Shown piece after piece: positions 13,148-64,000 of a stretch of DNA of 64,000 nucleotides. The stretch is from a virus (lineage: Duplodnaviria > Caudoviricetes). The position numbers and the translations under genes are program-made. How positions within the stretch are numbered: the stretch's first letter is position 1; each line of letters begins with the position of its first letter. The notes beneath the pieces were generated by a model, which searched no databases, was not told the DNA's origin, and worked only from the letters and a program-made list of their open reading frames with translations. The stretch lies in the IMG/VR virus record IMGVR_UViG_3300050821_008548, positions 1,562 to 65,561 of that record; one strand, given 5' to 3'.

Positions 13148-13405
13148 ATGCGCGTTTGCAAGCTCAGACTCGACACGGTCCGCAAGGTGTGGCTACACGA
13201 GCCCACGGGCCTTCAGGTTACCCACTGGGACGACACTGAGAGCGGCAACCGTGAGCGCGTGCATGCGGCCGCGGCGAAGATGTTCTCCGAGCGCCTGAAC
13301 GAGCCGTGCTCGATCGAGTTTCTCGACGCGCCATTCCCGTCGTCCCAGACGATGACCGAGGTTCGGATGACCAACTTCGGGGGCGCCAGACTTCCCAGCG
13401 CCTAG
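13148..13405 (+). CDS. Hypothetical protein
   Basis: GAGG upstream; fills the gap before terL. Confidence 0.5.
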   Translation: MRVCKLRLDTVRKVWLHEPTGLQVTHWDDTESGNRERVHAAAAKMFSERLNEPCSIEFLDAPFPSSQTMTEVRMTNFGGARLPSA

Positions 13406-13407
13406 CG

Positions 13408-14733
13408 GTGCAGTTCTCGCTCGAGACGCCCCAGTTCGAGGCGTACAAGGCGCTGCAGCCCGGCATGACCGTCGGGATTGGCTGGGGCCGCGGTGGCGGT
13501 AAGAGCCAGTTCATTCGGCTCATGTGGTACCTGCTGGTCGCTCAGTGGGACGGGCACTACCGGACGGGCTCCCCGTTCCCTGGCGTCCGTATCGTGCTGC
13601 TGATGGCCGACCTCAACGCGGCCAAACGCGTTCACGCGAGCCTGTTTCTGTCCGAGCTAGCCAACGAGTGGTCGATGCTCCGCGGCAAGACGGACCGCAC
13701 GACGTGGCGGACCAACTTCCCCGGCGGGTCTTGGATCCAGTGGGTGAGCGCCGCGCAGGCCCTGTCGATCAAGGGTCTCCGGTGCGACATCATCTGCGTC
13801 GATGAGTGTGACCAGATCGACACGTCGGTCATCGACGCGCGGTGTGGCCCCTGGCTCACCGAGCCGCATTCGCTCGACATCCAGCTCATTGCGGGCACCC
13901 CGGAGAAGGGGCGCTACGGCCTGCTGTACCGAACCTGGGCGCGCGCGAACGGCAAGCTGCTGGACAACGACGGGCACGAGTTCGAGCGCCACGCCTTCAG
14001 CCACGCGACCAGCTACGAGTTCCCGCACTTCGTCAGCCGCAAGAAGCTCGACAAGGAGCGCAAGGAGCTCACGCCGCAGCTCTTCGAGCGCGAGTACCTG
14101 TGCAACTGGGACGCGGCCGAGGGCCTGGTTTACCCGCACTTCCGCGAAGACTTCCACGTCAGGAAGCCTCCGCCGGACATCGTCTGGCGAGAGCACATCG
14201 TGGGCGTCGACTGGGGGTTCGAGGATCCTGCGGTCATCAACGTTTACGGGCTGGCGGGCAGCGGTCGAGACGTCACCATCCACCAATTGGCGGAGTGGTA
14301 TATCGTCCACAAGACGGACTCTCAGATCGCAGAGATCTCCATCCAGGTCGACACGCTCTACCCGGGCGCTCGCTGGTACGCCGATCCGAGCCGACCTCAG
14401 TCGATCGCCGCGGTGAAACACGAGGCCGGCGTCCGCATCGTGCAAGCCGACAACTCGATCGAGGACGGGGTCGCGACGGTCGCTGACGCGCTTCTGGTGC
14501 GAGAGCGAGACGACGGCGAGCGATGGGCCCAGCTGTACATCAGCCCCAACTGCACCAACACGATCCGCGAGTTCAGCGAGTACCGGCGCAAGCGGGACCC
14601 GAAGAACCGGGAACGCGTGCTCGACGACATCGAGGACAAGAACAACCACGCCATGGACGCCACCAGATACGCCCTGTTCACGCACTTCGGCGGCCCCGAG
14701 CGGCGCCTGGTGACCGGCTACGGCGTCGGCTGA
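13408..14733 (+). CDS. terL: Terminase large subunit
   Basis: Walker A GRGGGKS, Walker B IICVDE, coupling motif GTP, nuclease GVDWG...ADPS...NHAMDATRY. Confidence 0.95.
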   Translation: MQFSLETPQFEAYKALQPGMTVGIGWGRGGGKSQFIRLMWYLLVAQWDGHYRTGSPFPGVRIVLLMADLNAAKRVHASLFLSELANEWSMLRGKTDRTTWRTNFPGGSWIQWVSAAQALSIKGLRCDIICVDECDQIDTSVIDARCGPWLTEPHSLDIQLIAGTPEKGRYGLLYRTWARANGKLLDNDGHEFERHAFSHATSYEFPHFVSRKKLDKERKELTPQLFEREYLCNWDAAEGLVYPHFREDFHVRKPPPDIVWREHIVGVDWGFEDPAVINVYGLAGSGRDVTIHQLAEWYIVHKTDSQIAEISIQVDTLYPGARWYADPSRPQSIAAVKHEAGVRIVQADNSIEDGVATVADALLVRERDDGERWAQLYISPNCTNTIREFSEYRRKRDPKNRERVLDDIEDKNNHAMDATRYALFTHFGGPERRLVTGYGVG

Positions 14734-25495: not shown

Positions 25496-27070
25496 GTGGC
25501 ATCGATCATTCTTGTCGGCCTCGGCGCCCAATGGGCAGTTCCGGGCGTTTACGTTGAGCTTGATTTCGCTCAGGGCCCCGTCGCCGGCTTCGGCTCGGTC
25601 CGCAAGATCCTGCTGCTCGGCAACAAGTCGGCTGCGGGCACCGCGACCAACGACACCGTCGTCTACGGGCCGGACACGCAGACGCCCTGCCAGACGGAGT
25701 CCGACGTCATTGGCCTCTTCGGCACCGGCAGCCAGCTGCACCGCATGTACCTGCGGTTTGTGGCGATCAACACTGTCTCGTCGCTGTACTTCCTGGCCGT
25801 CACCTCGAGCGCCGGCGTCGCCGCGACGATCAACGAGACCATCGCCACGACTGCGACGAGCTCCGGGAATCACCGCTTCTGGTGCGTCGACCAGTTCGTC
25901 GACACCACGATCAACACGGGCGACACGGCGATCACGATCGCGACCAACATCGTCGCGTCGATCAATCAACAGACTCGCTGGCCCGTCACGGCGTCCAACG
26001 GCGGAACCGCGGTCGTCGCCATCACGGCCAAGATCCCTGGGCCCGAGGGGAACTGGATCCGCGTCCAGGCGCTCATCACGCCGACGACCGCAACGATCGG
26101 GACGACCACAACCCTCACGGCCAACACGTTCCTGTCGACGGGCGCGACGGCCGACGTCAACACGACGGCGCTCACCACGATCGCCTCGGCCCGCTACTTC
26201 TACATCGTCTCGGGCGACTCGGACGCAACCAACCTCGGTCGGCTCGTTACCCAGGTCAACAGCCAGGCGCTGCCACTCAACGGCATGCGCCAAAACGTGG
26301 TCTTCGGGAGCATGGACACGCTCGCGAACACCATCACGGTGTGCACCGGGCTCAATGCCGCGCGCGCCGAGTGCGTCTGGGGCAGCTCCACCGACTTCAC
26401 CCCAGCGGAGCTCGCGGCGAACAACTGCGCGATCTACTCGCTGCTCGAGCAGGGTTCGCCCTTCGGCGTGGCCCGCAAGAACTTCTCCAACTTCCCGGCC
26501 AACCCCACCGATCAAACGGTCTGGCTGGTCGCCGCGGGCCGCGCCGGCGTCGGTGGCTCCCCCACGCCCACGCAGCAGCAGTCGGCCCTGCAGAACGGCC
26601 TGAGTCCCATCGCCGTACTGCCCAACGGCGCGTCGTACCTCGTCAAGCGCTGCACCACGCGCAGCCTCAACGGCGCGGTCAACGACTTCCGCGTGCGCGA
26701 CAAGCACAAGGTGATCGTGTGCGACTACTGGTGCGACGACGCGGCGACTATCACGGCGCTGCAGTTCGGTGGCAAGGACCTCTTGCCCGACCCGGTGCAG
26801 GGCCAGCCCCCGCCGCCCCCGACGGCCACGACCCCCAAGCGCTGGGCGGGTGCCATCAAGAGCCTGACGAGCAACTACGGCAGCGCGGGCCAGTGGAGCT
26901 TCCCGCCCGGGGAGACGCCGCAGCCCGGAGAGTCGCCGGCGGACACGATCAACCGGCTCACGATCGTCCAGGCGGAGACCAACCCGCCGACGAGGATGAG
27001 CGCACTTGTTGGGCTGAGCCCCGTGAACGTCCTGGATCAACTCGCGGTTCTCGCGCAACAGGTGGGGTAA
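25496..27070 (+). CDS. Contractile tail sheath protein (Mu gpL-like)
   Basis: VPGVYVELDF, KILLLG, LFGTGSQLHRM, ITAK.PG.EGN.I, ALQNGLSPI. Confidence 0.92.
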   Translation: MASIILVGLGAQWAVPGVYVELDFAQGPVAGFGSVRKILLLGNKSAAGTATNDTVVYGPDTQTPCQTESDVIGLFGTGSQLHRMYLRFVAINTVSSLYFLAVTSSAGVAATINETIATTATSSGNHRFWCVDQFVDTTINTGDTAITIATNIVASINQQTRWPVTASNGGTAVVAITAKIPGPEGNWIRVQALITPTTATIGTTTTLTANTFLSTGATADVNTTALTTIASARYFYIVSGDSDATNLGRLVTQVNSQALPLNGMRQNVVFGSMDTLANTITVCTGLNAARAECVWGSSTDFTPAELAANNCAIYSLLEQGSPFGVARKNFSNFPANPTDQTVWLVAAGRAGVGGSPTPTQQQSALQNGLSPIAVLPNGASYLVKRCTTRSLNGAVNDFRVRDKHKVIVCDYWCDDAATITALQFGGKDLLPDPVQGQPPPPPTATTPKRWAGAIKSLTSNYGSAGQWSFPPGETPQPGESPADTINRLTIVQAETNPPTRMSALVGLSPVNVLDQLAVLAQQVG

Positions 27071-52526: not shown

Positions 52527-52784
52527 ATGGCCAACACCCCGCAGCCGAGACGGTACGAGTCTGCCGACACCGTGCCGATGATGAAAGAGGAGATCGCGGC
52601 GGCCCTCGCCGGTCTGCACGAGTTGCGGTGTCCCGCGTGCGCGCCGACGTGGGACAAGCCGGCGTGTGCCTGCTGCAACTCCACGCGGTTTGTGTCACGT
52701 GGAACCTTCGCAGCCTGGCACCAGCGCGAGCAGGGCCGCGTCAGCGAGACGCGGCTGGACTCGTACGACAACGGTGAGGGTTGA
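52527..52784 (+). CDS. Cys-rich hypothetical protein
   Basis: CPAC...CACC. Confidence 0.5.
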   Translation: MANTPQPRRYESADTVPMMKEEIAAALAGLHELRCPACAPTWDKPACACCNSTRFVSRGTFAAWHQREQGRVSETRLDSYDNGEG

Positions 52785-53569
52785 TGCTCCGAGGTATTGA
52801 CGTCTCTTCGATCCAGCGCGACGTGCCCTGGGAGAAGGTCGCCGCCGCCGGCTGCAGCTTCGCGATCGTCAAGGGCGCCTCGGGCAACGCCCCCGGCCCC
52901 GATCCGATGTTCGCCAAGAACGTCGCCGGCGCCCAGGCCGCTGGCCTCATCGTGGGCGCCTACCACGTGGCGTTCCCCCTGCCGCCGGACACCACGAAGG
53001 CCAACCGGGACCCGGCCGACCAGGCCAAGTACCACTTCGACCTGTGCAGGGGTTTCGGCTCTCACGACGGGGAGCTCGGCCCGATGCTGGACTGTGAGTG
53101 GCCCGAGCCCGCCGACTGGAACCGGTGGGGCTGCAGCGCGCCACAGATCCGCGCGTGGCTTCTGGCCTACCTCGACGCCGCGACCACGCTGTGGGGCCGT
53201 CTGCCGACGGTGTACACCTATCCCGATTGGGCGACCCACGTCGGCCTGGCCAGCGAGCCCGCGTTCGCCAAGTACCCGCTCTGGGCGGCCTCGTATACGC
53301 ACCCGGACAGGTGGCCTGGGGCTGGGGAGGCCCCGGCGTCGATCGCCCCGTGGGGAGGCTCCTGGCGCTTCTGGCAGTCGTCCGGCGGCACGCAGTCACT
53401 CTGGAGCGGCGTCCCGGTCGACTGCGATGTCTTCAACGGGACGCTCGAGGAGCTACACGCGCTCACCGTTGGGAGCGGCACCGCTGCCCTCGCCCAAGCC
53501 GCCATCCTCCAGGCCGCCGACGAGATCCCAGTGATCCCGCCGCCCGAGCCGCCAGACGAAGTGGCTTAG
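52784..53569 (+). CDS. GH25 muramidase (endolysin)
   Basis: GIDVS, FAIVK, GAYH, LDCE, VYTY, LWAASY, FWQ, VDCDVFNG. Confidence 0.93.
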   Translation: MLRGIDVSSIQRDVPWEKVAAAGCSFAIVKGASGNAPGPDPMFAKNVAGAQAAGLIVGAYHVAFPLPPDTTKANRDPADQAKYHFDLCRGFGSHDGELGPMLDCEWPEPADWNRWGCSAPQIRAWLLAYLDAATTLWGRLPTVYTYPDWATHVGLASEPAFAKYPLWAASYTHPDRWPGAGEAPASIAPWGGSWRFWQSSGGTQSLWSGVPVDCDVFNGTLEELHALTVGSGTAALAQAAILQAADEIPVIPPPEPPDEVA

Positions 53570-53645
53570 GCCCCCACAGCACTTCCTTCGCCCCCGACTC
53601 GTCGCGCGACCTCCTGCGCTGCGGCGTTTCGGGGGCACCTCTACC

Positions 53646-53676
53646 GCCCTGGTGGCTTCGGCCGCCGGGGCTTTTT
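53646..53676 (+). terminator. Rho-independent terminator ending the late operon
   Basis: GCCCTGGTGGC-TTCG-GCCGCCGGGGC followed by TTTTT. Confidence 0.8.
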
Positions 53677-53726
53677 CTCGTCCGGGGACGCCTAGCCATA
53701 GCGCCTCGCGCGCAGTGGGGCGCGGC

Positions 53727-53918
53727 CTAACCGACCTCAATCTCCTTGAAGCACGCACATCTCGGCGGACCCTTGTGGAGGTCGGAGTACAGGCCGCACT
53801 TGGCACAGTACCCGACCAGCCACCCACGAAGCCGACGGACGACGTAACGCACCTCGTCCGGAGTCGACCCGCATAGCTTGTCCTCAAGCGCCGCCTCCCA
53901 TCTCTCTTGCTCCGGCAT
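53727..53918 (-). CDS. Hypothetical protein
   Basis: AAGGAG upstream; CAKC...H...CAC. Confidence 0.6.
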   Translation of the reverse strand: MPEQERWEAALEDKLCGSTPDEVRYVVRRLRGWLVGYCAKCGLYSDLHKGPPRCACFKEIEVG

Positions 53919-53964
53919 CGAGGTCTCCTTTCAGATGGCGCGCAGTGTGGCGCGGGGGCCTTGT

Positions 53965-54273
53965 CTACGTGTTCTTGAATCCTGGGAGGAACCGCACTCC
54001 CACGGTCGCTATCACTGCAGGTCGCCAAACGGCGCCGCACGACTGACAGGCGTGCGTGTGGTGCGGCTTCGTGGCGAACTCGCCTTCGTCTACGTGAAGC
54101 TCGCCGCACGCGGGACATTCGAGCCGGATGGGGACCGGCTCCGACACCTCCCATGAACCCCGATGCATCTGGAGAGCGGCGAGACACACCGGGCATATCT
54201 CCGGGTGACCCTCGCCGCCCTTCGGTATCGGCCTCCCGCATCCAGGGGTATCGCACGTCGGTCGCTTGCTCAT
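53965..54273 (-). CDS. Zinc-finger protein (start uncertain)
   Basis: CDTPGC...CPVC; CPACGELHVDEGEFATKPHHTHACQSCG. Confidence 0.6.
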   Translation of the reverse strand: MSKRPTCDTPGCGRPIPKGGEGHPEICPVCLAALQMHRGSWEVSEPVPIRLECPACGELHVDEGEFATKPHHTHACQSCGAVWRPAVIATVGVRFLPGFKNT

Positions 54274-54412
54274 CGGTCCCTTCTTGCCCTCACTGAGGAT
54301 CTCCTTCGTTCGTCCGAACATCGCGCGCAGTGCAGTCACGGGAATGTGCTGCCTTCCCACCCACCGTCGGGCATGACGGCAATGGCCTTCCGGCCCTTCT
54401 GCGGCAGCAGGG

Positions 54413-54673
54413 TTACTTGGTACATCTTGAACACGTGCACACGCACGTGCCGCCTTCCTGTAGAAGTCTGCACCCTCGGCCGAACTGGCGGCAGTGCCGC
54501 TGACCCGTAGACCATTCGGCGAAGGTCTCTCCCTTCACCATAGCTTCTGTCGCAGAGGACCGGAGCAAAAGGGCGCCAGTGGGGCAAAGGTCGAACGGGT
54601 GATCCGCGCACTGCTCGCAGACGCCGAGATGCGCGTGGAACGTATCTCCGAACTTGTTTGGCTCCGTCCCCAT
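54413..54673 (-). CDS. Cys/His-rich hypothetical protein
   Basis: FHAHLGVCEQC...LCPTG; GGAGG upstream. Confidence 0.6.
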   Translation of the reverse strand: MGTEPNKFGDTFHAHLGVCEQCADHPFDLCPTGALLLRSSATEAMVKGETFAEWSTGQRHCRQFGRGCRLLQEGGTCVCTCSRCTK

Positions 54674-54699
54674 CGTCTCATCCTCCTTCGCGCGCAGTG

Positions 54700-54981
54700 T
54701 TATGCGGCGATCTTCTCTACAGTGACCGTCCTCTTCTCCACCTTCGCCTCGGTGTCGCGGGTTGCGCGTGCTGCCACCGACGCGCCCCACTCCGTATCCC
54801 ACCGCGAGGCATTCTCCGGCTCCGGCACCCACGTAATCATCTCTGGGTTCGGTCCGCAGTACGGACCATCACTGATGACCGGGTACCGCACGCCGACCAG
54901 ATAGTCCTTGTGCGTGTGGATCTGACCGTGTGACTGCCACTTGAAGTTTCGCGTCACGAAGTACCATGTTTCTGTTTGCAT
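54700..54981 (-). CDS. Hypothetical protein
   Basis: AGGAGG upstream. Confidence 0.6.
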   Translation of the reverse strand: MQTETWYFVTRNFKWQSHGQIHTHKDYLVGVRYPVISDGPYCGPNPEMITWVPEPENASRWDTEWGASVAARATRDTEAKVEKRTVTVEKIAA

Positions 54982-55010
54982 CGTCCGTTCCTCCTGAACA
55001 TTCGCGCGCA

Positions 55011-55193
55011 TTATGCTGAATCCGGCTTCCGTGTGGCATAGCCCGTGCGTGGCCTCGGCATCTCGGTCTCGCGCACGAGCTTTTCGACCATGCCGCTGCG
55101 GGTCTCGCCGCACCGCGTTGCCATCTCGTCCAGGCGCGCGATGGCGTCGGGCGAGAGGGAGATGTGGACGAGTGGGCGCCTACGCTTCGTCAT
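55011..55193 (-). CDS. Ribbon-helix-helix (CopG-like) regulator
   Basis: VHISLSPDAIARLDEMATRCGETRSGMVEKLV. Confidence 0.75.
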   Translation of the reverse strand: MTKRRRPLVHISLSPDAIARLDEMATRCGETRSGMVEKLVRETEMPRPRTGYATRKPDSA

Positions 55194-55434
55194 CGTCCTC
55201 GGGCTCCGGGCGCACGTTGTCGCCCGTCGGGTCGTAGAAGCAGTGCCAACCCTTGCCAGGGCAAGGCGCATCACATTCCCCCTCGCACTCGCGCACTTCG
55301 CCGATGATGGCACCGTGGTCGCTGCGAAGAGTGGCGCTCGCCCGCAGGCGCATCATCCGGGTGCCGAGCTCCGCGGCCGTCCCTTGCAGGACGACCCCGG
55401 CTCCGCGCTTGGTCATGTAGGCGAGCTGGCTCAT
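55180..55434 (-). CDS. Hypothetical protein
   Basis: ATGA coupled; CEGECDAPC. Confidence 0.55.
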   Translation of the reverse strand: MSQLAYMTKRGAGVVLQGTAAELGTRMMRLRASATLRSDHGAIIGEVRECEGECDAPCPGKGWHCFYDPTGDNVRPEPEDDDEA

Positions 55435-55703
55435 CGACGGGTACCGCTGGGCGCGAGGATCTTCTGCGGCAGGGGGTATTCCATGTCGTCCTCATCCATG
55501 CGCACGAGAGCCGTATCCGGCCCATCGATGGCAGATACCGTCCCTCGCTCCCCGGCCAGAAACGACTCCATGTCGCGGCCCCTGGTGTAGCTCCTTGTCA
55601 GGTGTACGCGCATTCCGATCTTGAGGATCGGTCGAGGCCACGAACCTCCGCACGTGCACGGGGTTTCGACGCAGTCGGTATGGTGCAGGCTTGAATTGCT
55701 CAT
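55431..55703 (-). CDS. Hypothetical protein with SH3/KOW-like C-terminus (probably leaderless)
   Basis: LKIGMRV...GERGTV...ALVRMD. Confidence 0.55.
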   Translation of the reverse strand: MSNSSLHHTDCVETPCTCGGSWPRPILKIGMRVHLTRSYTRGRDMESFLAGERGTVSAIDGPDTALVRMDEDDMEYPLPQKILAPSGTRR

Positions 55704-55709
55704 ACCTGT

Positions 55710-55738
55710 ACTGTAGCCGCAGTGTAGCCACACGTCAA
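55710..55738 (-). promoter_or_regulatory. Sigma70-type promoter with GGCTACA direct-repeat operator
   Basis: TTGACG-N17-TACAGT with 6 nt to ATG 55703; GGCTACA twice, 11 bp apart. Confidence 0.7.
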
Positions 55739-55787
55739 GTGCGTCATGGTCGATTCTTGGGGCCGGAATGGCTGCACGTGGCGCGCA

Positions 55788-55964
55788 TTATGCAGAATCC
55801 TTCGCCCTGCGTTCCTCGCTCCGGTAGTCGTGCTTCGACCCGAAGCAGATCGGGCACTCTAGCGGCGGCAGCCCACCGCAACGCACTAATCCGTCATCCT
55901 CGCAGTAGGTGCAAAGCGCCCACGTATGCTTGCCATCCTTTGAGGTTCCGCTGAGGGCGCGCAT
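55788..55964 (-). CDS. Small zinc-finger protein
   Basis: CTYC...CPIC; TAATG coupled. Confidence 0.55.
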   Translation of the reverse strand: MRALSGTSKDGKHTWALCTYCEDDGLVRCGGLPPLECPICFGSKHDYRSEERRAKDSA

Positions 55965-56332
55965 TATCGCCTCCCCGCCTCCCGACGCGGATCGAGTCTC
56001 GCCAGCAGCTCGTCCGCTTCCCTGCTCGTGTGGATCCGCGTCAGGTTCCGCAGCGCCGCGAGCAGGTCGTCGCGGTCGGTCACTACGCGATGGGCGGCCT
56101 CGTACGCGGTCTCTTCGCCAGCACGAAGCGTCTTGCAGACGTCGTCGAGCTCCTTGTCGAGGTCCGCGGCTCGGGCCAGCGAAGCTTCGTGGATGTCGGA
56201 TCGCACGTACGTCGGTCCCTCCGGGTTGAGCAGTCGACCGGTCGCCCATGCGGACTTGAATCGCCATTGGTCACGTTCGTAGACGATCTCCACACCTTCG
56301 GGCGGCGCCATCTTCCGCAGATCAGCGGTCAT
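55964..56332 (-). CDS. Hypothetical protein
   Basis: YVRSD motif; ATGA coupled. Confidence 0.55.
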   Translation of the reverse strand: MTADLRKMAPPEGVEIVYERDQWRFKSAWATGRLLNPEGPTYVRSDIHEASLARAADLDKELDDVCKTLRAGEETAYEAAHRVVTDRDDLLAALRNLTRIHTSREADELLARLDPRREAGRR

Positions 56333-56535
56333 CGGGCCGATCCTTGAATCGCCGCGTCGAAGGCGTCGAGCTCCACATCGGGAAACGGTGCGTCGGCGTT
56401 CCGATAGCGCTCCGCAGCCTCGACCACATCCAGCGCAGCAATCAGAGTTCTCGTTGCGACCGACGCACTGCAAGCCTCGCTCGTGCAGCGGCAGCCGGTA
56501 GTCAGTACGTGCTCTCGAAGATCGTCGATGGTCAT
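56329..56535 (-). CDS. Hypothetical protein
   Basis: ATGA coupled; LIAALDVVEAA. Confidence 0.55.
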   Translation of the reverse strand: MTIDDLREHVLTTGCRCTSEACSASVATRTLIAALDVVEAAERYRNADAPFPDVELDAFDAAIQGSAR

Positions 56536-56975
56536 CCTTCCTCTCCTCCCGCCAGCGCGGCGCGGGCTGCCTTGACTCCAAGGTCGAACGCCATCGCCAG
56601 TGTGACTGACAGCCTGTCCTGATCCGCACGAACTTCATCGCGAAGCTTCGTGAGTTCGACCACCGGCAACGGTACGTCCAGCTCGCGCAGCTCCCTCGCC
56701 TGCTCCTCGAGCGCGGCGATAAGGGCGGGGATGTCGGTGCGGGCGTGGGCGATGAACGGCCCGTCGATGTCCCGGTCCGCCTCATAGTCCTGCTCGCAGG
56801 TAGCGATGACGAATTCGTGCTCTGGCTCGTCCAGTTCGCAGTCCTCGAATGGGCACTCACCCTCTCCTGGGCACTTCATCGTCGCATGAACGTATGCTCC
56901 GCCTGACGTCCACGGCCCCGGCGTCGCCCTCTGCTCTCGCTCTCGAATGGCCGCGAGTTGGGTGGGGGAGATCAT
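56532..56975 (-). CDS. Ead/Ea22-like early protein
   Basis: ATPGPW...FIAHARTDIPALIAAL. Confidence 0.65.
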   Translation of the reverse strand: MISPTQLAAIREREQRATPGPWTSGGAYVHATMKCPGEGECPFEDCELDEPEHEFVIATCEQDYEADRDIDGPFIAHARTDIPALIAALEEQARELRELDVPLPVVELTKLRDEVRADQDRLSVTLAMAFDLGVKAARAALAGGEEG

Positions 56976-57052
56976 GGCTGTCCCGAATACCAGATGGCCC
57001 ATCCGATGAAAGAGAGCACCGCGAGAAACAGCACCACATCAGGCCACGGCAT
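56972..57052 (-). CDS. 26-aa TM peptide
   Basis: MPWPDVVLFLAVLSFIGWAIWYSGQP; coupled on both sides. Confidence 0.45.
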   Translation of the reverse strand: MPWPDVVLFLAVLSFIGWAIWYSGQP

Positions 57053-57300
57053 CACCCCCGCCTCCTTCCCACCCGCACAACCCGCACCACCTCGCGCCAG
57101 TCCGGGCCCCACATGCGCGCCGTGCGGAATGCGTCGCTGCGGGACATCGCGAACGCGTGGGCGCGGTCGTACCAGAGCGCGACGCCGCGGTAGAAGGACG
57201 ACCAGCCCTGCAAGTAGGATGTCGCTGCGGTCCTGGAGAGGCCGCGGCGGAGGCGCAGGAGGTAGTGGGTCACCTCCGCCACCACTTCGCAAACAGCCAC
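57052..57300 (-). CDS. Hypothetical basic protein (start may be 57273)
   Basis: ORF fits the coupled leftward operon. Confidence 0.45.
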   Translation of the reverse strand: MAVCEVVAEVTHYLLRLRRGLSRTAATSYLQGWSSFYRGVALWYDRAHAFAMSRSDAFRTARMWGPDWREVVRVVRVGRRRG

Positions 57301-57390: not shown

Positions 57391-57849
57391 TCAGAACGGC
57401 AACGGCGTCTCTCCGCCCGAGTCGAAGTCGCCCCCATGTGACGCCCCAGGTGCGGCAGGCGCCGGCATGGGCCGCCCGGAGTTCCTGCGGGCCCACGCCC
57501 GGCAGATCTTGGCCTCGAAGGTGTCGGCCTCGTGCCACGGCTTGCCATTGTTGTTCAGGCGCACCGGGTTCTCCTTGCGCCCCTGCTCCGCCTTCCAGTC
57601 GAGGAAGGACGCCTGCGCCTCGTGCCAGGCAGCGGGGGCCTGGCTGTAGCGAAGTCCGACCATCGTCGGGCCCGAGTAGCGCTTCGGGTCTTTCTTGATC
57701 TCCTTGTCGGCCCACGCGTTGTCGAGCTGGTGGTCGGGCAGCGCGTCGCCAGATGCGGAGGCGGCGGCCGATGGGACGGCGGCCAGCAGCCGGTCGACCT
57801 TCGCCTCGATGATCTCGAGGCGGCGCAGTATCTCCTCCCCAGCGCCCAT
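57391..57849 (-). CDS. Hypothetical protein with SSB-like C-terminal tail
   Basis: TGATG coupled to recT; ends GGDFDSGGETPLPF. Confidence 0.6.
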   Translation of the reverse strand: MGAGEEILRRLEIIEAKVDRLLAAVPSAAASASGDALPDHQLDNAWADKEIKKDPKRYSGPTMVGLRYSQAPAAWHEAQASFLDWKAEQGRKENPVRLNNNGKPWHEADTFEAKICRAWARRNSGRPMPAPAAPGASHGGDFDSGGETPLPF

Positions 57850-58739
57850 CAGGACGCCGTCTCCGGCTTGGTCTCCACCAACTCGCCGGTGGCCGGATCG
57901 TGCGCCCCGCCGCCCATGAGCGCGGCCTCGAGCGAGGCGGTGTCCCCGGGGGTCATCGCGCTCGGCAGTGCGGGGCGGTCGTCGAAGTCCCCGTCGGCCG
58001 TCATGGCCAGTGCCTGCTCCATGACCGGGTCGTAAACGGGCAGGTGCTTGCACAAGCGGCGGATCGCGCTCTTTCGCACCATCTCCTCTTCCCAGTTGGC
58101 CCACGGACCCGCGGTGGTCCCGCTCGCGGGGGAGGCTGCGCGGATCTTCGCGATGTCCTTCTTGGACAGAGGCTCGATCTGCTTGGCGCCATCGACGTAG
58201 ATGGCGATCGCGTACCCGGCCACGATGGCGCCTCGGTCCTCGACGTCGTAGTTGGGGACGTGCGTAAGCGTCGGATTGTCACCGAGCGTCACCTGGTACT
58301 CGTCTTGGTCGTAGACCGCGTGGGCGTCGAATCGAGCGACCTTCCCCGTGCGTCGGGCGATGTCCTCGAAACCGCGCCACCCGGGGTCGAAGGTGGCCTC
58401 GAGCTTCTTGGTGTGCTTGTTAGCCCGAGGGATGAGGTAGCCACGTCCGTTGGTGCCACCTGGGACGATGCCCATCGCCGCTGCATCCATGAGGCACCGG
58501 AGCACGCTCTCTGGGGAGCACTTGAGCAGATCCGGGGAACGCGAAGCCGCCATGAGCGCCAGGCGGATCAGGTCGTCGGGTTTCATGAACTTCGCTGCAA
58601 CCTCGGCGAGCTTCGCTTTGACGTCCTGTCGCTCGAGGAACGCGTGCAGCGTGTTCGCGTACTTCGGGGCCTCCTGGATCGGCGCGCTGCCGTTTGCGGC
58701 TGGCGTCATTGCCTGATTCGTGGCGTTGCTAGTGGCCAT
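57849..58739 (-). CDS. recT: RecT family ssDNA annealing protein
   Basis: PDLLKCSPESV...AA.MG..P....GYLIP; GWRG..IARR; VY..DE; PW.NW.EEM.RKS.IRRL.K.LP. Confidence 0.92.
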   Translation of the reverse strand: MATSNATNQAMTPAANGSAPIQEAPKYANTLHAFLERQDVKAKLAEVAAKFMKPDDLIRLALMAASRSPDLLKCSPESVLRCLMDAAAMGIVPGGTNGRGYLIPRANKHTKKLEATFDPGWRGFEDIARRTGKVARFDAHAVYDQDEYQVTLGDNPTLTHVPNYDVEDRGAIVAGYAIAIYVDGAKQIEPLSKKDIAKIRAASPASGTTAGPWANWEEEMVRKSAIRRLCKHLPVYDPVMEQALAMTADGDFDDRPALPSAMTPGDTASLEAALMGGGAHDPATGELVETKPETAS

Positions 58740-59306: not shown

Positions 59307-60191
59307 CTAGTACCAGACAGGTAGCTCCAGCTCCTGGATGGCATCGGAGAAGCCTGGCCAACTACCGGTCGCCACGCAGTCGGCCATGGTTCTCATCAAC
59401 TCACGCACTCTCCCATACGTTATGGCAATGTCCACTGCTCTCATGGTGTAGATCGCCACCGCGTGAGGCGGCGCCGATTCGACGGCTATGTACAGAAAAT
59501 ACCGAACTTCCTTGCCGATGGCGCCGAAGCCCGCGCGGTAGTGCGTATCCTGGATTCCGTATCCGTACTTCGCCACGTCGCGCGCGAAGGCTCGGGGTGA
59601 CGCGTCTCGACACGACTTGATGTCGATGACCGCGCCCAGGTCCGGGCGGTACCTGTCCGCTCGCAGGCGGCACGGCAGCCCCGTTTCCTTGTCGGCCCAG
59701 GCCACCGTGACCTCTGGCAGCCCGCCGGAGAGCAGGCGACTCGCCTTGGGGTGACGCTGGATCGCGGAGACCATGCCCATCAGCGCAGCGCCCTCGGCGC
59801 CCGACAGAACCTCGTGATTTGCGTGGACCCTGCGGAACTCGTCGCGGCGTGTCTTGTTGATCTTCGCCTGCTCCGAGCCGCAGTCGTCCGTCTTGCGGCA
59901 GGGGCCGAAGTCGGGGGCCATGATGTACTCCTGCGCGAACCGCTCCGGCTCGAGCAGGGCCATGTGCGTGGCGCGCCCGAGCGACAGCGACGGCGTGTCC
60001 TCGTCCTCGGTCGAGGTCGCCCACGTGTAGTAGTGCAGGGGCGATTGCGCCATGTACTGGAGGGCCGTCTTGCGGACCACGCCGAGCTCGCGTGCGAGGT
60101 AGCGGTGAGCAGGTACGTCCGGGTGAAGGCCCGGCGGAAGGGCGAGCGGCGGCGCCCCGCGGATTGAGATCGCGGCGGTCATGCGGGCCAC
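59307..60191 (-). CDS. RecE/exonuclease VIII-like PD-(D/E)XK nuclease (DUF3799-type)
   Basis: SP.HY...LGRATH..LLEP; EV...W.D.ETG..CR.R.D...IDIKS; Y..Q..HY; F.YIAVE..PP. Confidence 0.88.
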   Translation of the reverse strand: MARMTAAISIRGAPPLALPPGLHPDVPAHRYLARELGVVRKTALQYMAQSPLHYYTWATSTEDEDTPSLSLGRATHMALLEPERFAQEYIMAPDFGPCRKTDDCGSEQAKINKTRRDEFRRVHANHEVLSGAEGAALMGMVSAIQRHPKASRLLSGGLPEVTVAWADKETGLPCRLRADRYRPDLGAVIDIKSCRDASPRAFARDVAKYGYGIQDTHYRAGFGAIGKEVRYFLYIAVESAPPHAVAIYTMRAVDIAITYGRVRELMRTMADCVATGSWPGFSDAIQELELPVWY

Positions 60192-60904: not shown

Positions 60905-61107
60905 GATGCGGCCTCCGGATCGACAAGCTCAATCTCGGAGGACACGGCATACCCGCGCGCACCCCACACCCTCTCAAGCCGCGCGAGCTCGTCGGGGGTA
61001 CGAAGAACGGGAAGCCGAACGGTCAGAGCGCCCAGCGTCAGCGAGACGCGGCGCATCTCGGCGAAGCCCGCAAGGCGGGCGGTGCGGCTGGAGAGCCAGG
61101 GGATCAC
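60901..61107 (-). CDS. Hypothetical protein
   Basis: GTGA coupled; GGAGG upstream. Confidence 0.5.
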   Translation of the reverse strand: MIPWLSSRTARLAGFAEMRRVSLTLGALTVRLPVLRTPDELARLERVWGARGYAVSSEIELVDPEAAS

Positions 61108-61890: not shown

Positions 61891-62304
61891 CTACCGACCC
61901 GAGCGTGGGCCGCCGCGGATTATTTCCGCGAGAGACTCATCCGTTCGCCTCAGAAGGTCGTGCCAGTCTTCGGGCGTGTAGCTGCGCGATCGAGGGATGG
62001 TCAGCGCCATTTTGCTCACAGCGGCGATCACGTGCGCCGCCCACCGACGAGAGGCCATGGCCCTATACAGATCCGGCGGTGCCCCGCCGAGCAGCACCTC
62101 TACCGGGACGCGATCGGCATCGGCGATCTTTGTAGCCGTGTGGTAGCCGGGCGTCGCGGTGCGGTTCTTGATCTTGCCGACGGTCTGCTGGGAGATGCCG
62201 GTGTGCTCACCCACAGCCTTCTCGGAACCCTTCTCATTGAGAAGGTCCACGATGCGATCCCGGACACGTTCGGCTTCGACTTGATTGAGGGCACGGGCTG
62301 ACAC
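61891..62304 (-). CDS. XRE-family HTH repressor (cI-like; start inferred)
   Basis: SEKAVGEHTGISQQTVGKIKN...PGYHTATKIADA..VPVEVLL; divergent from the cro-like gene. Confidence 0.75.
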   Translation of the reverse strand: MSARALNQVEAERVRDRIVDLLNEKGSEKAVGEHTGISQQTVGKIKNRTATPGYHTATKIADADRVPVEVLLGGAPPDLYRAMASRRWAAHVIAAVSKMALTIPRSRSYTPEDWHDLLRRTDESLAEIIRGGPRSGR

Positions 62305-62330
62305 TTGGCCGACACTATCAGGCGGGGCTA

Positions 62331-62446
62331 CGCCTAGAAGCGTAAGCGTCCGGTGGCCATCGAGTCGGTGTTTCATGCGGAAAACGGCCCCCGACACGGC
62401 CGGTTCGCATTTTCCCATTGCACGTTCACGCCTACGGGCGTAATAC
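62331..62446. promoter_or_regulatory. Lysis/lysogeny switch operators and rightward promoter
   Basis: CGCCTAGAAGCGTAA at 62331 and CGCCTACGGGCGTAA at 62429; TTGCAC at 62418. Confidence 0.55.
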
Positions 62447-62454
62447 GAAAGTCC

Positions 62455-62733
62455 ATGGACGAGTACCACCGTCGGTTCGCGAACACGGCTGGGGCCAAGC
62501 TTCTGCGGGCCTTCTTCGCGGCCCAGGCGGATGGGGATGGGTCCTGGACCCAGGTCGGATTGTCCACGGTTCTTGGGGTGCACAAGAACACCGTCCACTT
62601 CTGGACGATCGGCTTTCGGCGCCCCCACTCGCACGATCTGCGCCTGGCGCTCCTGCGCATCGCTGGCATTCCGACCGAGGCGTGGATGACCAGGGACGAG
62701 AAGGTGAAGGCGAAAAGGCTTCGTGCGGCGTAG
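62455..62733 (+). CDS. Cro-like HTH protein
   Basis: WTQVGLSTVLGVHKNTVHFWTIGFRRP...GIPTEAW. Confidence 0.72.
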   Translation: MDEYHRRFANTAGAKLLRAFFAAQADGDGSWTQVGLSTVLGVHKNTVHFWTIGFRRPHSHDLRLALLRIAGIPTEAWMTRDEKVKAKRLRAA

Positions 62734-63458: not shown

Positions 63459-64000
63459 CCTTCCCGCGAAGCGCACGCGCATCGACTCCCTGACAGACGC
63501 CGAGAAGGCGCGGATGCCGGAGTGGCGAGATCGTTGGATATCGATCGGCCTACGCACCGGTCCAGCCGACCGCCCCGCCTTCGAGCGGCACGTCGCCGAC
63601 TGCTACCGCGCCGCGGGTCTCGAGCCGCCGAAGCGCGTCGTCTGGGTCCCGTCGCCGCTCGCGCTCGCGTTCGCGGCGCCGGCGGCAGCCATCGCGATCG
63701 AGTGGAGGAAGAACCCGGAGATCGTCGCGTGGCTCGCGAAGCGCGTCGGGCCCGCGCCAGCGGCCGTCGACTCGGCCGTCGACTCGGCCGTCCGCTCGGC
63801 CGTCGACTCGGCCGTCCGCTCGGCCGTCGGCTCGGCCGTCCGCTCGGCCGTCGACTCGGCCGTCGGCTCGGCCGTCGACTCGGCCGTCGGCTCGGCCGTC
63901 TACTCGGCCGTCGACTCGGCCGTCCGCTCGGCCGTCTACTCGGCCGTCGGCTCGGCCGTCGACTCGGCCGTCCGCTCGGCCGTCGGCTCGGCCGTCGACT
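63445..64000 (+). CDS. DUF6745-type protein with V-x-S-A repeats (truncated by window end)
   Basis: IDSLT..E...PEWRDRW..IGL.T.PADR..FE....Y..AGL.PP..VVWVPSP then repeats; no stop before 64000. Confidence 0.75.
   Translation, partial: MRKTNLPAKRTRIDSLTDAEKARMPEWRDRWISIGLRTGPADRPAFERHVADCYRAAGLEPPKRVVWVPSPLALAFAAPAAAIAIEWRKNPEIVAWLAKRVGPAPAAVDSAVDSAVRSAVDSAVRSAVGSAVRSAVDSAVGSAVDSAVGSAVYSAVDSAVRSAVYSAVGSAVDSAVRSAVGSAVD
63761..64000 (+). repeat. 12-bp in-frame tandem repeat with one variable codon, at least 20 units
   Basis: CGGCCGTC-(GAC/CGC/GGC/TAC)-T. Confidence 0.97.

What the first reader, a model, noticed from the sequence alone, without database searches (positions are those of the whole stretch)
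53708..55967. Array of small genes punctuated by a conserved gene-end motif: candidate phage gene-cassette system
Seen: on the coding (-) strand, (C/T)A(C/A)TGCGCGC occurs 7 times in 2.3 kb. Every copy overlaps or lies within 17 nt downstream of a stop codon (stops at 53727, 53965, 54336, 54700, 55011, 55788, 55964), and it usually precedes the next ribosome-binding site. Some pairs share longer context on the + strand: GAACAT(T)CGCGCGCA at the 54323 and 55004 copies, and GCGCGCAGTG(G/T)GGCGCGG at the 53708 and 53938 copies. The intervening genes are unrelated, short and often Cys/His-rich, whereas the rest of the leftward arm is mostly joined by ATGA-type overlaps. Inference: these could be recombination scars of a cassette insertion/exchange system, driven by the nearby RecE/RecT on microhomologies or by a site-specific recombinase. 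The alternative is a repeated regulatory or RNA-processing element like mycobacteriophage start-associated sequences.
Basis: partly seen in the sequence, partly recalled or inferred. Interest (0 to 1): 0.8.

Follow-up and report, generated by a model that had tools for sequence, protein, structure and literature searches.

The report
Repeated gene-junction motif in phage accessory genes
A short DNA word sits at the end of almost every unit in one block of small accessory genes of a temperate phage, and it most likely marks junctions that were copied each time a new gene unit was spliced in, giving a candidate hot spot for phage gene shuffling.

Summary
A(C/A)TGCGCGC occurs 7 times in the 65,561-bp phage record. 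All 7 lie on the minus strand within 53708-55966, at or just after stop codons. Shuffles expect 1.55. An unbiased k-mer scan ranks CACTGCGCGC as the most tightly clustered repeated 10-mer.

There is no shared RNA hairpin, no Rfam match, and no copy at the cro/cI control region or at any other junction. The intervening genes are not paralogs.

Two units are flanked by direct repeats of about 20 nt that end exactly at the motif's 3' end: c2/c3 around a promoter+3-gene unit, and c6/c7 around the last gene. The RHH gene at the right end of the first unit matches its near-identical homologs up to codon 55. It then switches to a copy of the upstream gene's tail plus the motif.

At >=90% identity, U2b, RHH and U5 have relatives elsewhere, whereas RecT, g68, g122 and U1 have none.

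Best reading (about 0.45): these are junction sequences duplicated during serial insertion of gene units. Whether the motif is an active hot spot is unproven.

No DNA of close relatives could be fetched, so the breakpoint test remains undone. A stoperator/SAS-like cis-signal remains a live rival.

The parts
55957..55966 (-). Motif copy c1 (TAATGCGCGC). TAA is the stop of the 122-aa gene and ATG is the start of U1.
   Evidence: The U1 homolog P0005 also begins MRA.
55781..55803 (-). Motif copy c2 with the left copy of the 20-23-nt direct repeat AAG-GATTCTGCATAATGCGCGC. TAA is the stop of U1, and ATG starts a 14-codon mini-ORF.
   Evidence: (D7)
55004..55029 (-). Motif copy c3 with the right copy of the direct repeat AAG(CCG)GATTCAGCATAATGCGCGC. 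It supplies the last codons and the stop of the RHH gene. Its ATG is in frame with U3, 10 codons upstream of U3's RBS-served start.
54690..54699 (-). Motif copy c4 (CACTGCGCGC), directly after the TAA of U3. AGGAGG follows 2 nt later.
54323..54332 (-). Motif copy c5 (CACTGCGCGC), followed by G-ATGTTC as at c3.
53936..53956 (-). Motif copy c6 with the left copy of the ~20-nt repeat CCGCGCC-A-CACTGCGCGC. It lies after the stop of U5 and before the RBS of U6.
   Evidence: (D1)
53706..53726 (-). Motif copy c7 with the right copy of the ~20-nt repeat. It starts at the TAG of U6, the last gene of the arm, and no gene follows it.
   Evidence: (D1)
55964..56332 (-). 122-aa gene just upstream of the array, joined upstream by ATGA overlaps.
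   Evidence: two homologs, 80-87% identical over the N-terminal half
55788..55964 (-). U1: 58-aa Cys-rich (zinc-ribbon-like) protein.
55011..55780 (-). U2: the inserted unit. It holds a promoter-like site (TTGACG-17-TACAGT, 55738-55710), two mini-ORFs chained by ATGA overlaps (55744-55788, 55700-55747), U2a (55431-55703), U2b (55180-55434) and an RHH protein (55011-55193).
54700..54981 (-). U3: 93-aa protein of a conserved small family (8 homologs, 63-80% identity). Its native C-terminus ..IAA is shared with the homologs.
54336..54673 (-). U4: an 86-aa Cys-rich protein (54413-54673) plus a doubtful 29-aa ORF (54336-54425).
53965..54293 (-). U5: a 102-aa double zinc-ribbon protein (53965-54273), preceded by an 8-codon mini-ORF (54270-54293) whose TGA overlaps U5's ATG.
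53727..53918 (-). U6: 63-aa protein of a small conserved family, and the last gene of the leftward arm.
53646..53671 (+). Terminator-like hairpin with a T-run on the plus strand, closing the convergent endolysin gene. It marks the end of the array.

Best explanation
The seven copies are descendants of one short gene-junction sequence: a stop codon, then (CAC)TGCGCGC, then the leader or start of the next gene. The junction was copied each time a new small-gene unit was spliced into the far end of the early leftward operon of this temperate myovirus.

Each insertion left the junction on both sides of the newcomer. This kept the upstream gene's stop and the downstream gene's start signals intact. 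The result is a co-oriented row of unrelated accessory genes separated by the same word.

The two youngest events are still visible as repeats of about 20 nt around U2 and U6. Both repeats end exactly at the 3' end of GCGCGC, which points to that position as a preferred joining point.

Shown: the motif statistics; the flanking repeats; the breakpoint in the RHH gene; the different spread of the units in public data.

Inferred: that all seven copies arose this way; that the motif is a recombination hot spot rather than a passively copied junction; and that short-homology recombination (the phage's own RecE/RecT, 2-4 kb away, or host functions) did the joining.
For: 1. The motif is confined to this 2.3-kb block on one strand: 7 of 7 copies in 65.5 kb.
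2. U2 is flanked by a repeat matching 19 of 20 nt (D7). Counting AAG and a 3-nt indel, the match is 22 of 23 nt. Its upstream-flank score of 10.5 equals the maximum of 560 control pairs taken at the other 34 TGCGCGC sites.
3. The RHH protein matches its three >=90%-cluster homologs through ...GYATR. It then reads KPDSA* where they read TTDKT*/TTGKT*. The switch falls on the first codon of the repeat, which copies the U1 tail KDSA*.
4. U6 is flanked by a repeat matching about 17 of 20 nt. Its score of 8.5 sits near the control 99th percentile of 8.7.
5. In both pairs, similarity stops right after GCGCGC. The left copy is followed by C plus new DNA, and the right copy by G plus old DNA.
6. The units have separate histories. 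U2b has 7 relatives in its 90% cluster, one of them seen on 49 contigs. RHH has 3 and U5 has 2. RecT, g68, g122, U1, U4a and U6 have none at that level.
7. The array proteins are not paralogs.
8. A U3 homolog (66% identical) in another viral contig is joined to its neighbours by ATGA/GTGA overlaps without the motif. The word therefore does not belong to the gene.
9. Stubs after the motif fit leftover starts of displaced genes: a 14-codon MRA... ORF at c2, a 10-codon in-frame extension at c3, and ATGTTC at both c3 and c5.
Against: - No DNA of a close relative was obtained, so no gain or loss breakpoint at the motif has been seen. The one other contig that carries these genes encodes identical array proteins.
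- Only c2/c3 is individually strong. c6/c7 and the downstream similarities (c3/c4, c3/c5, c5/c6) sit near the 99th percentile of controls, and part of that comes from shared AGGAG ribosome sites.
- The invariant core (A-TGCGCGC, 8 columns) is better conserved than its flanks. That is what selection on a functional site would also give.
- 9-10 nt is very short for homologous recombination.
- The record has no recombinase other than the integrase: Resolvase, RVT_1, HNH and rve gave 0 hits, and Phage_integrase gave 1.
- Five more distant relatives found through the terminase share only structural genes and show no clustering of the motif.
Confidence: 0.45

Rival explanations
1. The motif is a cis-acting gene-end signal: an asymmetric binding site on DNA or mRNA for a phage or host protein. 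It would act like a mycobacteriophage stoperator (a transcription roadblock in the lysogen) or a start-associated sequence (a translation aid). The longer repeats would be incidental.
For: - All copies share one orientation, sit at a fixed place next to stops, and have 8 invariant columns while the flanks vary.
- The block has its own promoter-like site in U2 and no terminator until the end of the arm, so roadblocks could limit read-through.
- The block encodes an RHH protein and several zinc-ribbon-like small proteins that could bind nucleic acid.
- Stoperators and SAS are likewise short, asymmetric, one-way and next to gene ends or starts (PMC9283540 passages; PMC3203893 passages).
Against: - The motif is absent from every other junction of the genome and from the cro/cI control region, whose inverted repeats look different.
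- The distance to the next start runs from 0 to 85 nt, and the motif does not contain the SD sequence.
- The last copy has no gene after it.
- The likely RHH operator is a different sequence: two GGCTACA words 11 nt apart over the -10 of the U2 promoter (read; this is inference).
- A binding site does not explain why the similarity runs about 13 nt into the coding 3' ends of U1 and RHH, or why RHH loses its native C-terminus there.
Confidence: 0.27
2. Two unrelated functional contexts were lumped together. TAATGCGCGC would simply be a stop-start overlap plus the first codons (Met-Arg-Ala) used for translational coupling. It may also act as a -10-like CATAAT/GATAAT box with a GC-rich discriminator. 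CACTGCGCGC would be a separate leader element.
For: - At c1 the ATG is the real start of U1, and the homolog P0005 also starts MRA.
- At c2 the ATG opens a chain of two mini-ORFs linked by ATGA overlaps that runs exactly into the U2a start. My rough estimate, made by reasoning and not by any search, is that such a chain arises by chance about 0.003-0.01 of the time.
- At c3 the ATG is in frame with U3.
- The promoter scan lists ATGCCA-18-CATAAT at c3.
Against: - The 5 other TAATG sites in the window carry no CGCGC after them, so coupling does not need it.
- The two word types share TGCGCGC at the same place relative to stops. c4 (GCATAA-CAC-TGCGCGCGAA) bridges them to c3 (GCATAA-TGCGCGCGAA).
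- Only 1 of 3 TAATG copies has even a 4-of-6 -35 box.
- U3 homologs start at the later ATG.
Confidence: 0.13
3. Chance or a compositional artefact of GC-rich DNA.
For: GCGCGC is common in this genome (134 sites, counted as 268 on both strands). The degenerate pattern was also defined after the fact.
Against: - 0 of 100 shuffles reach 7.
- Two exact 10-mers occur 4 and 3 times, only here and only on one strand.
- The word is the top-ranked cluster in an unbiased k-mer scan.
Confidence: 0.02

Closest known systems
PeSL (promoter-early stem-loop) cassettes in the hyperplastic regions of T4-type phages (Arbiol et al. 2010, PMC2839356, passages read; Comeau et al. 2014, PMC4122927, abstract and introduction read)
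   Same: Short conserved sequences lie between small, mostly ORFan, co-oriented early genes in a variable region. They are proposed as points of exchange that insert, delete or swap single genes without breaking neighbours.
   Different: PeSLs are composite elements made of a sigma-70 promoter and a stem-loop terminator, and their role was shown by comparing phage pairs and by inverse-PCR mini-circles. Here the word is 9-10 nt (up to about 21 nt) and has no promoter in it and no hairpin. It lies inside a translationally coupled operon. Neither relatives nor circles could be examined.
Stoperators of Cluster A mycobacteriophages (L5 gp71 sites; PMC9283540, passages read)
   Same: Short asymmetric sites in short intergenic spaces, all oriented with transcription.
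   Different: There are more than twenty 13-mers spread over the whole genome, and they are identical to the operator at the early promoter. Here there are 7 copies in one 2.3-kb block and none at the cro/cI region. No binding protein is known.
Start-associated sequences (SAS/ESAS) of Cluster K mycobacteriophages (PMC3203893, passages read)
   Same: An asymmetric repeat restricted to the non-structural genes, in one orientation, sometimes overlapping the upstream stop codon. Its function is unknown.
   Different: SAS is a 13-mer that contains AGGAG and sits 3-7 bp before the start codon, and it is conserved across subclusters. Here the motif lacks the SD sequence, tracks the stop rather than the start (0-85 nt to the start), and also follows the last gene.
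Integron cassette arrays (attC sites). Features are recalled, not taken from a call.
   Same: A row of co-oriented, mostly promoterless, unrelated small genes, each followed by a shared site.
   Different: There is no IntI next to the array, no 57-141-bp attC inverted repeat and no GTTRRRY core. The spacers here are 0-85 nt with no common fold.

Membership tests
PeSL mobile regulatory cassette | Each element carries a sigma-70-type early promoter | tested here: not met
   Only 2 promoter-like sites lie in 53300-57300. One is inside U2 and not at a motif. The other (weak) uses the CATAAT of c3.
PeSL mobile regulatory cassette | An adjacent stem-loop terminator | tested here: not met
   Folds of the 7 junctions give z-scores of -0.57 to +1.01 with no shared hairpin. 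No minus-strand terminator-like site lies at a motif.
PeSL mobile regulatory cassette | Lies between small ORFan genes of a variable region | tested here: met
PeSL mobile regulatory cassette | Indel breakpoints between close relatives fall in the element, and mini-circles form | not testable with these tools
Collection scans found no close relative. No sequencing run was listed.
Integron cassette array | IntI-type integrase with attI next to the array | tested here: not met
   There is one Phage_integrase hit in the record, at the other end of the genome, and no Resolvase.
Integron cassette array | attC: an imperfect inverted repeat of tens of nt after each ORF | tested here: not met
   Spacers are 0-85 nt and no common structure is present.
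Stoperator (Cluster A mycobacteriophage) | The same site serves as the operator at the early lytic promoter | tested here: not met
   No motif copy lies outside 53708-55966. The cro/cI divergent region 62300-62456 holds different inverted repeats.
Stoperator (Cluster A mycobacteriophage) | Many sites spread over both arms of the genome | tested here: not met
   7 sites lie in 2.3 kb of a 65.5-kb record.
Stoperator (Cluster A mycobacteriophage) | Asymmetric, in short intergenic spaces, one orientation relative to transcription | tested here: met
Stoperator (Cluster A mycobacteriophage) | Bound by the immunity repressor | not testable with these tools
   Needs a binding assay.
Start-associated sequence (Cluster K) | Contains the SD core and lies 3-7 bp upstream of the start codon | tested here: not met
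   The motif has no AGGAG. Distance from the motif to the start is 0, 85, 30, 16, 49 and 19 nt, with none for c7.
Start-associated sequence (Cluster K) | Conserved at the same gene families in related phages | not testable with these tools
   No relatives' DNA was available. The only hint is that the U1 homolog also starts MRA.

The most novel reading that the evidence does not exclude
The word TGCGCGC marks a true site-directed gene-capture point in a phage. An enzyme would join incoming small-gene DNA immediately 3' of the motif and duplicate about 20 nt of the target. Candidates are the phage's RecE/RecT, its integrase acting on a secondary site, or one of the unknown small Cys-rich proteins. 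The phage would then build an integron-like row of accessory genes without attC hairpins or an IntI integrase.
Probability: 0.12. Interest if true: 0.85.

Novelty: new variant of a known kind. Interest (0 to 1): 0.48.

Why it matters
How tailed phages gain and swap their many small, unknown accessory genes without wrecking neighbouring genes is still poorly understood. This is especially true for GC-rich temperate phages, where random illegitimate recombination is usually assumed. This block shows a concrete footprint of that process. A junction sequence is copied at each insertion, so the stop and start signals on both sides survive. There is one datable event in which a promoter-bearing three-gene unit, also found elsewhere in nature at >=90% protein identity, landed between two genes and lost its own last five codons to the duplicated junction.

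If the motif proves to be a preferred joining site, it would be a minimal, promoter-free counterpart of the T4 PeSL cassettes. It would also be a handle for predicting where new genes enter such phages. If it proves instead to be a binding site, it would be a new stoperator-like or SAS-like signal outside the actinobacteriophages.

Tried and rejected
**RNA element.** Folds of all 7 junctions were no more stable than shuffles and shared no hairpin. Rfam at gathering thresholds gave 0 matches in the window.

**Paralogous genes from tandem duplication.** All-against-all BLASTP of the 12 proteins found nothing among U1-U6 (best E 0.12).

**Looser copies elsewhere.** Variants with up to 2 mismatches were fewer than expected. 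The TGCGCGC at 60955 lies inside coding sequence with no stop nearby.

**Relatives by DNA.**
- Phage collection: one 51-nt hit only.
- Plasmid collection: no match.

**Relatives by protein.**
- RecT gave one viral contig at 37% identity.
- U3 alone and g156 gave none.
- The terminase gave 34 viral loci. The five longest records share only structural genes plus, in some, RecT, endolysin and integrase. None shares an array gene, and the motif is scattered on both strands in them.
- The g122 family alignment found nothing in metagenome, viral or genome contigs.
- The U1 alignment found nothing in metagenome or viral contigs.
- The U2b alignment found nothing in viral contigs.
- The U3 alignment found one viral locus, L050, which lacks the motif at that gene.
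- U3 by tblastn against the phage collection: no match.

**Host.** A degenerate pattern from the tRNA-His-like stretch inside int found nothing in genome contigs, so the host remains unknown.

**Sequencing runs.** None was listed, and no RNA holder was listed.

**ESM Atlas for U3.** The best score was 0.86 to unnamed clusters, which is not informative.

**Earlier notes of this scan.** No look-alike stretch in other genomes.

**Papers.** A search for myxophage genome papers gave only a listing, and nothing from it was read. No search was made for prior reports of this motif, so I make no claim that it is unpublished. Supplementary files of papers were not consulted.

**Not used.** Structure prediction, fold search, complex prediction, RNA model tools.


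Full report
**What the record is.** The window is bases 1562-65561 of a single 65,561-bp virus record. PHROG matches show a temperate myovirus:
- integrase, 651-2072
- large terminase, 13306-14733
- tail sheath, 25496-27070
- tape measure and baseplate genes
- GH25-type endolysin, 52781-53569
- on the minus strand, RecT-like (57849-58739) and RecE/exonuclease VIII-like (59307-60191) genes

The finding lies at the far end of the leftward (minus-strand) early arm. That arm ends head-to-head with the endolysin gene at a terminator-like hairpin at 53646-53671. The host is unknown. G+C is about 67%, against 63.6% in 54001-56000.

- YAMTGCGCGC has 7 matches in the window, all on the minus strand between 53708 and 55966. 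Shuffles expect 1.55, and 0 of 100 reach 7.
- In the whole record, AMTGCGCGC occurs 7 times, CACTGCGC 4 times and TAATGCGC 3 times, with none elsewhere.
- The shorter 8-mers and the 2-mismatch neighbours are not enriched.
- Each copy overlaps a stop codon or follows one within 17 nt. One caveat applies: the stop before c5 belongs to a 29-codon ORF that is not in the protein collection.
- GC3 is the highest codon position in all ten genes of the block (0.70-0.84), so the frames are plausible genes. The bias is weaker than in late genes (sheath 0.91).

**Anatomy.** Reading the minus strand, the order is:
- g122
- c1, then U1 (58 aa)
- c2, then U2: a promoter-like TTGACG-17-TACAGT site, then 90-aa, 84-aa and 60-aa RHH genes
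- c3, then U3 (93 aa)
- c4, then U4 (86 aa plus the doubtful 29 aa)
- c5, then U5 (102 aa)
- c6, then U6 (63 aa)
- c7, then the terminator

Copies c1-c3 read TAATGCGCGC, where TAA is the upstream stop. Copies c4-c7 read CACTGCGCGC. c4 (GCATAA-CAC-TGCGCGCGAA) bridges the two types to c3 (GCATAA-TGCGCGCGAA). Eight alignment columns are invariant. The RHH call is just under Pfam's threshold (20.3 against 20.5 bits). U1 and U5 give weak zinc-ribbon hits, and the rest match nothing. The proteins are not related to one another.

**What it is not.**
- The seven junctions fold no better than shuffles (z from -0.57 to +1.01) and share no hairpin.
- Rfam finds nothing.
- The cro/cI divergent region (62300-62456) carries different inverted repeats and no copy of the motif.
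- The 5 other TAATG sites in the window lack the CGCGC extension.
- The record has one tyrosine integrase and no hit to Resolvase, RVT_1, HNH or rve.

**Evidence for junction duplication.**

*The U2 repeat.* repeat finder reports a 20-nt direct repeat matching 19 of 20 nt at c2 and c3, on either side of U2 (D7). Counting the preceding AAG and a 3-nt indel, the match is 22 of 23 nt. As a control I compared the flanks of the other 34 TGCGCGC sites in the genome. The c2/c3 upstream score of 10.5 equals the maximum of 560 control pairs.

*The RHH breakpoint.* This repeat runs into coding sequence. U1 ends ...AKDSA* and the RHH protein ends ...RKPDSA*. The three other members of the RHH protein's 90% cluster are identical to it through ...PRTGYATR and then end TTDKT* or TTGKT*. 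The RHH gene therefore lost its own last five codons exactly where the copy of the U1 tail begins. This is a recombination breakpoint at the edge of the repeat.

*The U6 repeat.* A second pair, c6 and c7, flanks U6 with about 17 of 20 nt matching. Its score of 8.5 is close to the control 99th percentile of 8.7, so this pair is suggestive only.

*A fixed right end.* In both pairs the similarity stops right after GCGCGC. The left copy continues with C and the inserted DNA, and the right copy with G and the older downstream DNA.

*Downstream flanks.* The downstream flanks of c3/c4, c3/c5 and c5/c6 are also above the control 99th percentile or close to it. Part of that is the shared AGGAG ribosome site.

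**The units have separate histories.**

*Exact look-ups.* These show >=90% identical relatives for:
- U2b: 7 relatives, one of them seen on 49 contigs
- RHH: 3 relatives
- U5: 2 relatives

They show none for RecT, g68, g122, U1, U4a or U6.

*Homology searches.* These give:
- g122: two homologs at 80-87% identity over its N-terminal half
- U1: one homolog at 60% identity, which also begins MRA
- U3: eight homologs at 63-80% identity, which start at the later ATG and share the ..IAA C-terminus
- U6: 15 distant hits in a library of 1.84 billion representatives

*Context of one U3 homolog.* One U3 homolog could be seen in DNA (L050, 66% identity). There it is joined to its neighbours by ATGA and GTGA overlaps, with no motif.

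**Translational coupling.** From g156 to the long form of U3, every junction is a stop-start overlap. The 85-nt gap between U1 and U2a is tiled by two mini-ORFs linked TAATG, ATGA, ATGA. U5 is preceded by an 8-codon ORF ending in ATGA. The TAATG copies therefore do supply usable start codons. This is a functional reason to keep the junction intact when DNA is inserted.

**What could not be done.**
- No sequencing run was listed.
- A second contig encodes identical array proteins.

**Verdict.** The motif is real and specific. The best-supported reading is a junction sequence copied during serial insertion of accessory gene units, with GCGCGC as the recurrent joining point (about 0.45). A stoperator/SAS-like cis-signal is the main rival (about 0.27). 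A purely translational or promoter reading of the TAATG copies explains only part of the data (about 0.13). Chance is excluded.

The nearest published concept is the PeSL cassette of T4-type phages (PMC2839356, PMC4122927). The defining promoter and stem-loop of PeSLs were tested here and are absent, so this is a resemblance in mode of action, not membership.

Noticed in passing
window 63761-64000 and the first ~190 bases of the record (before the window): Both ends of the 65,561-bp contig lie in the same 12-bp tandem array (shared 12-mers at both ends). The assembly probably closes on itself there. The 'linear, 78% complete' label may therefore understate completeness.
   Followed up: partly
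window 55707-55730 (minus strand): Two GGCTACA words 11 nt apart span the spacer and the -10 of the U2 promoter-like site. This looks like a tandem operator for the RHH protein of the same unit. The -10 ends 6 nt before the U2a ATG, which would give a leaderless mRNA.
   Followed up: no
window 55700-55788 and 54270-54293 (minus strand): Mini-ORFs of 14, 15 and 7 codons are chained by TAATG/ATGA overlaps and carry ribosomes from U1 into U2a and into U5.
   Followed up: partly
window 62300-62733: The divergent control region holds ACGCC-N3-GGCGT-type inverted repeats, and a Cro-like HTH gene on the plus strand starts near 62457. The 304-aa minus-strand ORF 61891-62805 matches repressors only at residues 171-242, so its real start is probably near 62300.
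   Followed up: no
window 56329-57002 (minus strand): The neighbouring genes g156 and g68 share a 26-residue stretch at 54% identity (E 0.002 in a 12-protein database). This may be a partial duplication.
   Followed up: no
window 53727-53918 (U6): 8 of 10 aligned distant homologs of U6 carry a (K/R)GxW stretch after the CxC motif. U6 instead ends FKEIEVG. Its C-terminus may also have been replaced.
   Followed up: partly
L050 7614-7640: In an unrelated 127.5-kb viral contig, a gene starts ATGCGCGCG (MRA...) 12 nt after a TAG stop. This is a single look-alike of the TAATG-type junction, and there is no array there.
   Followed up: partly
A degenerate 40-nt pattern of it matched no species-representative genome.
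   Followed up: partly
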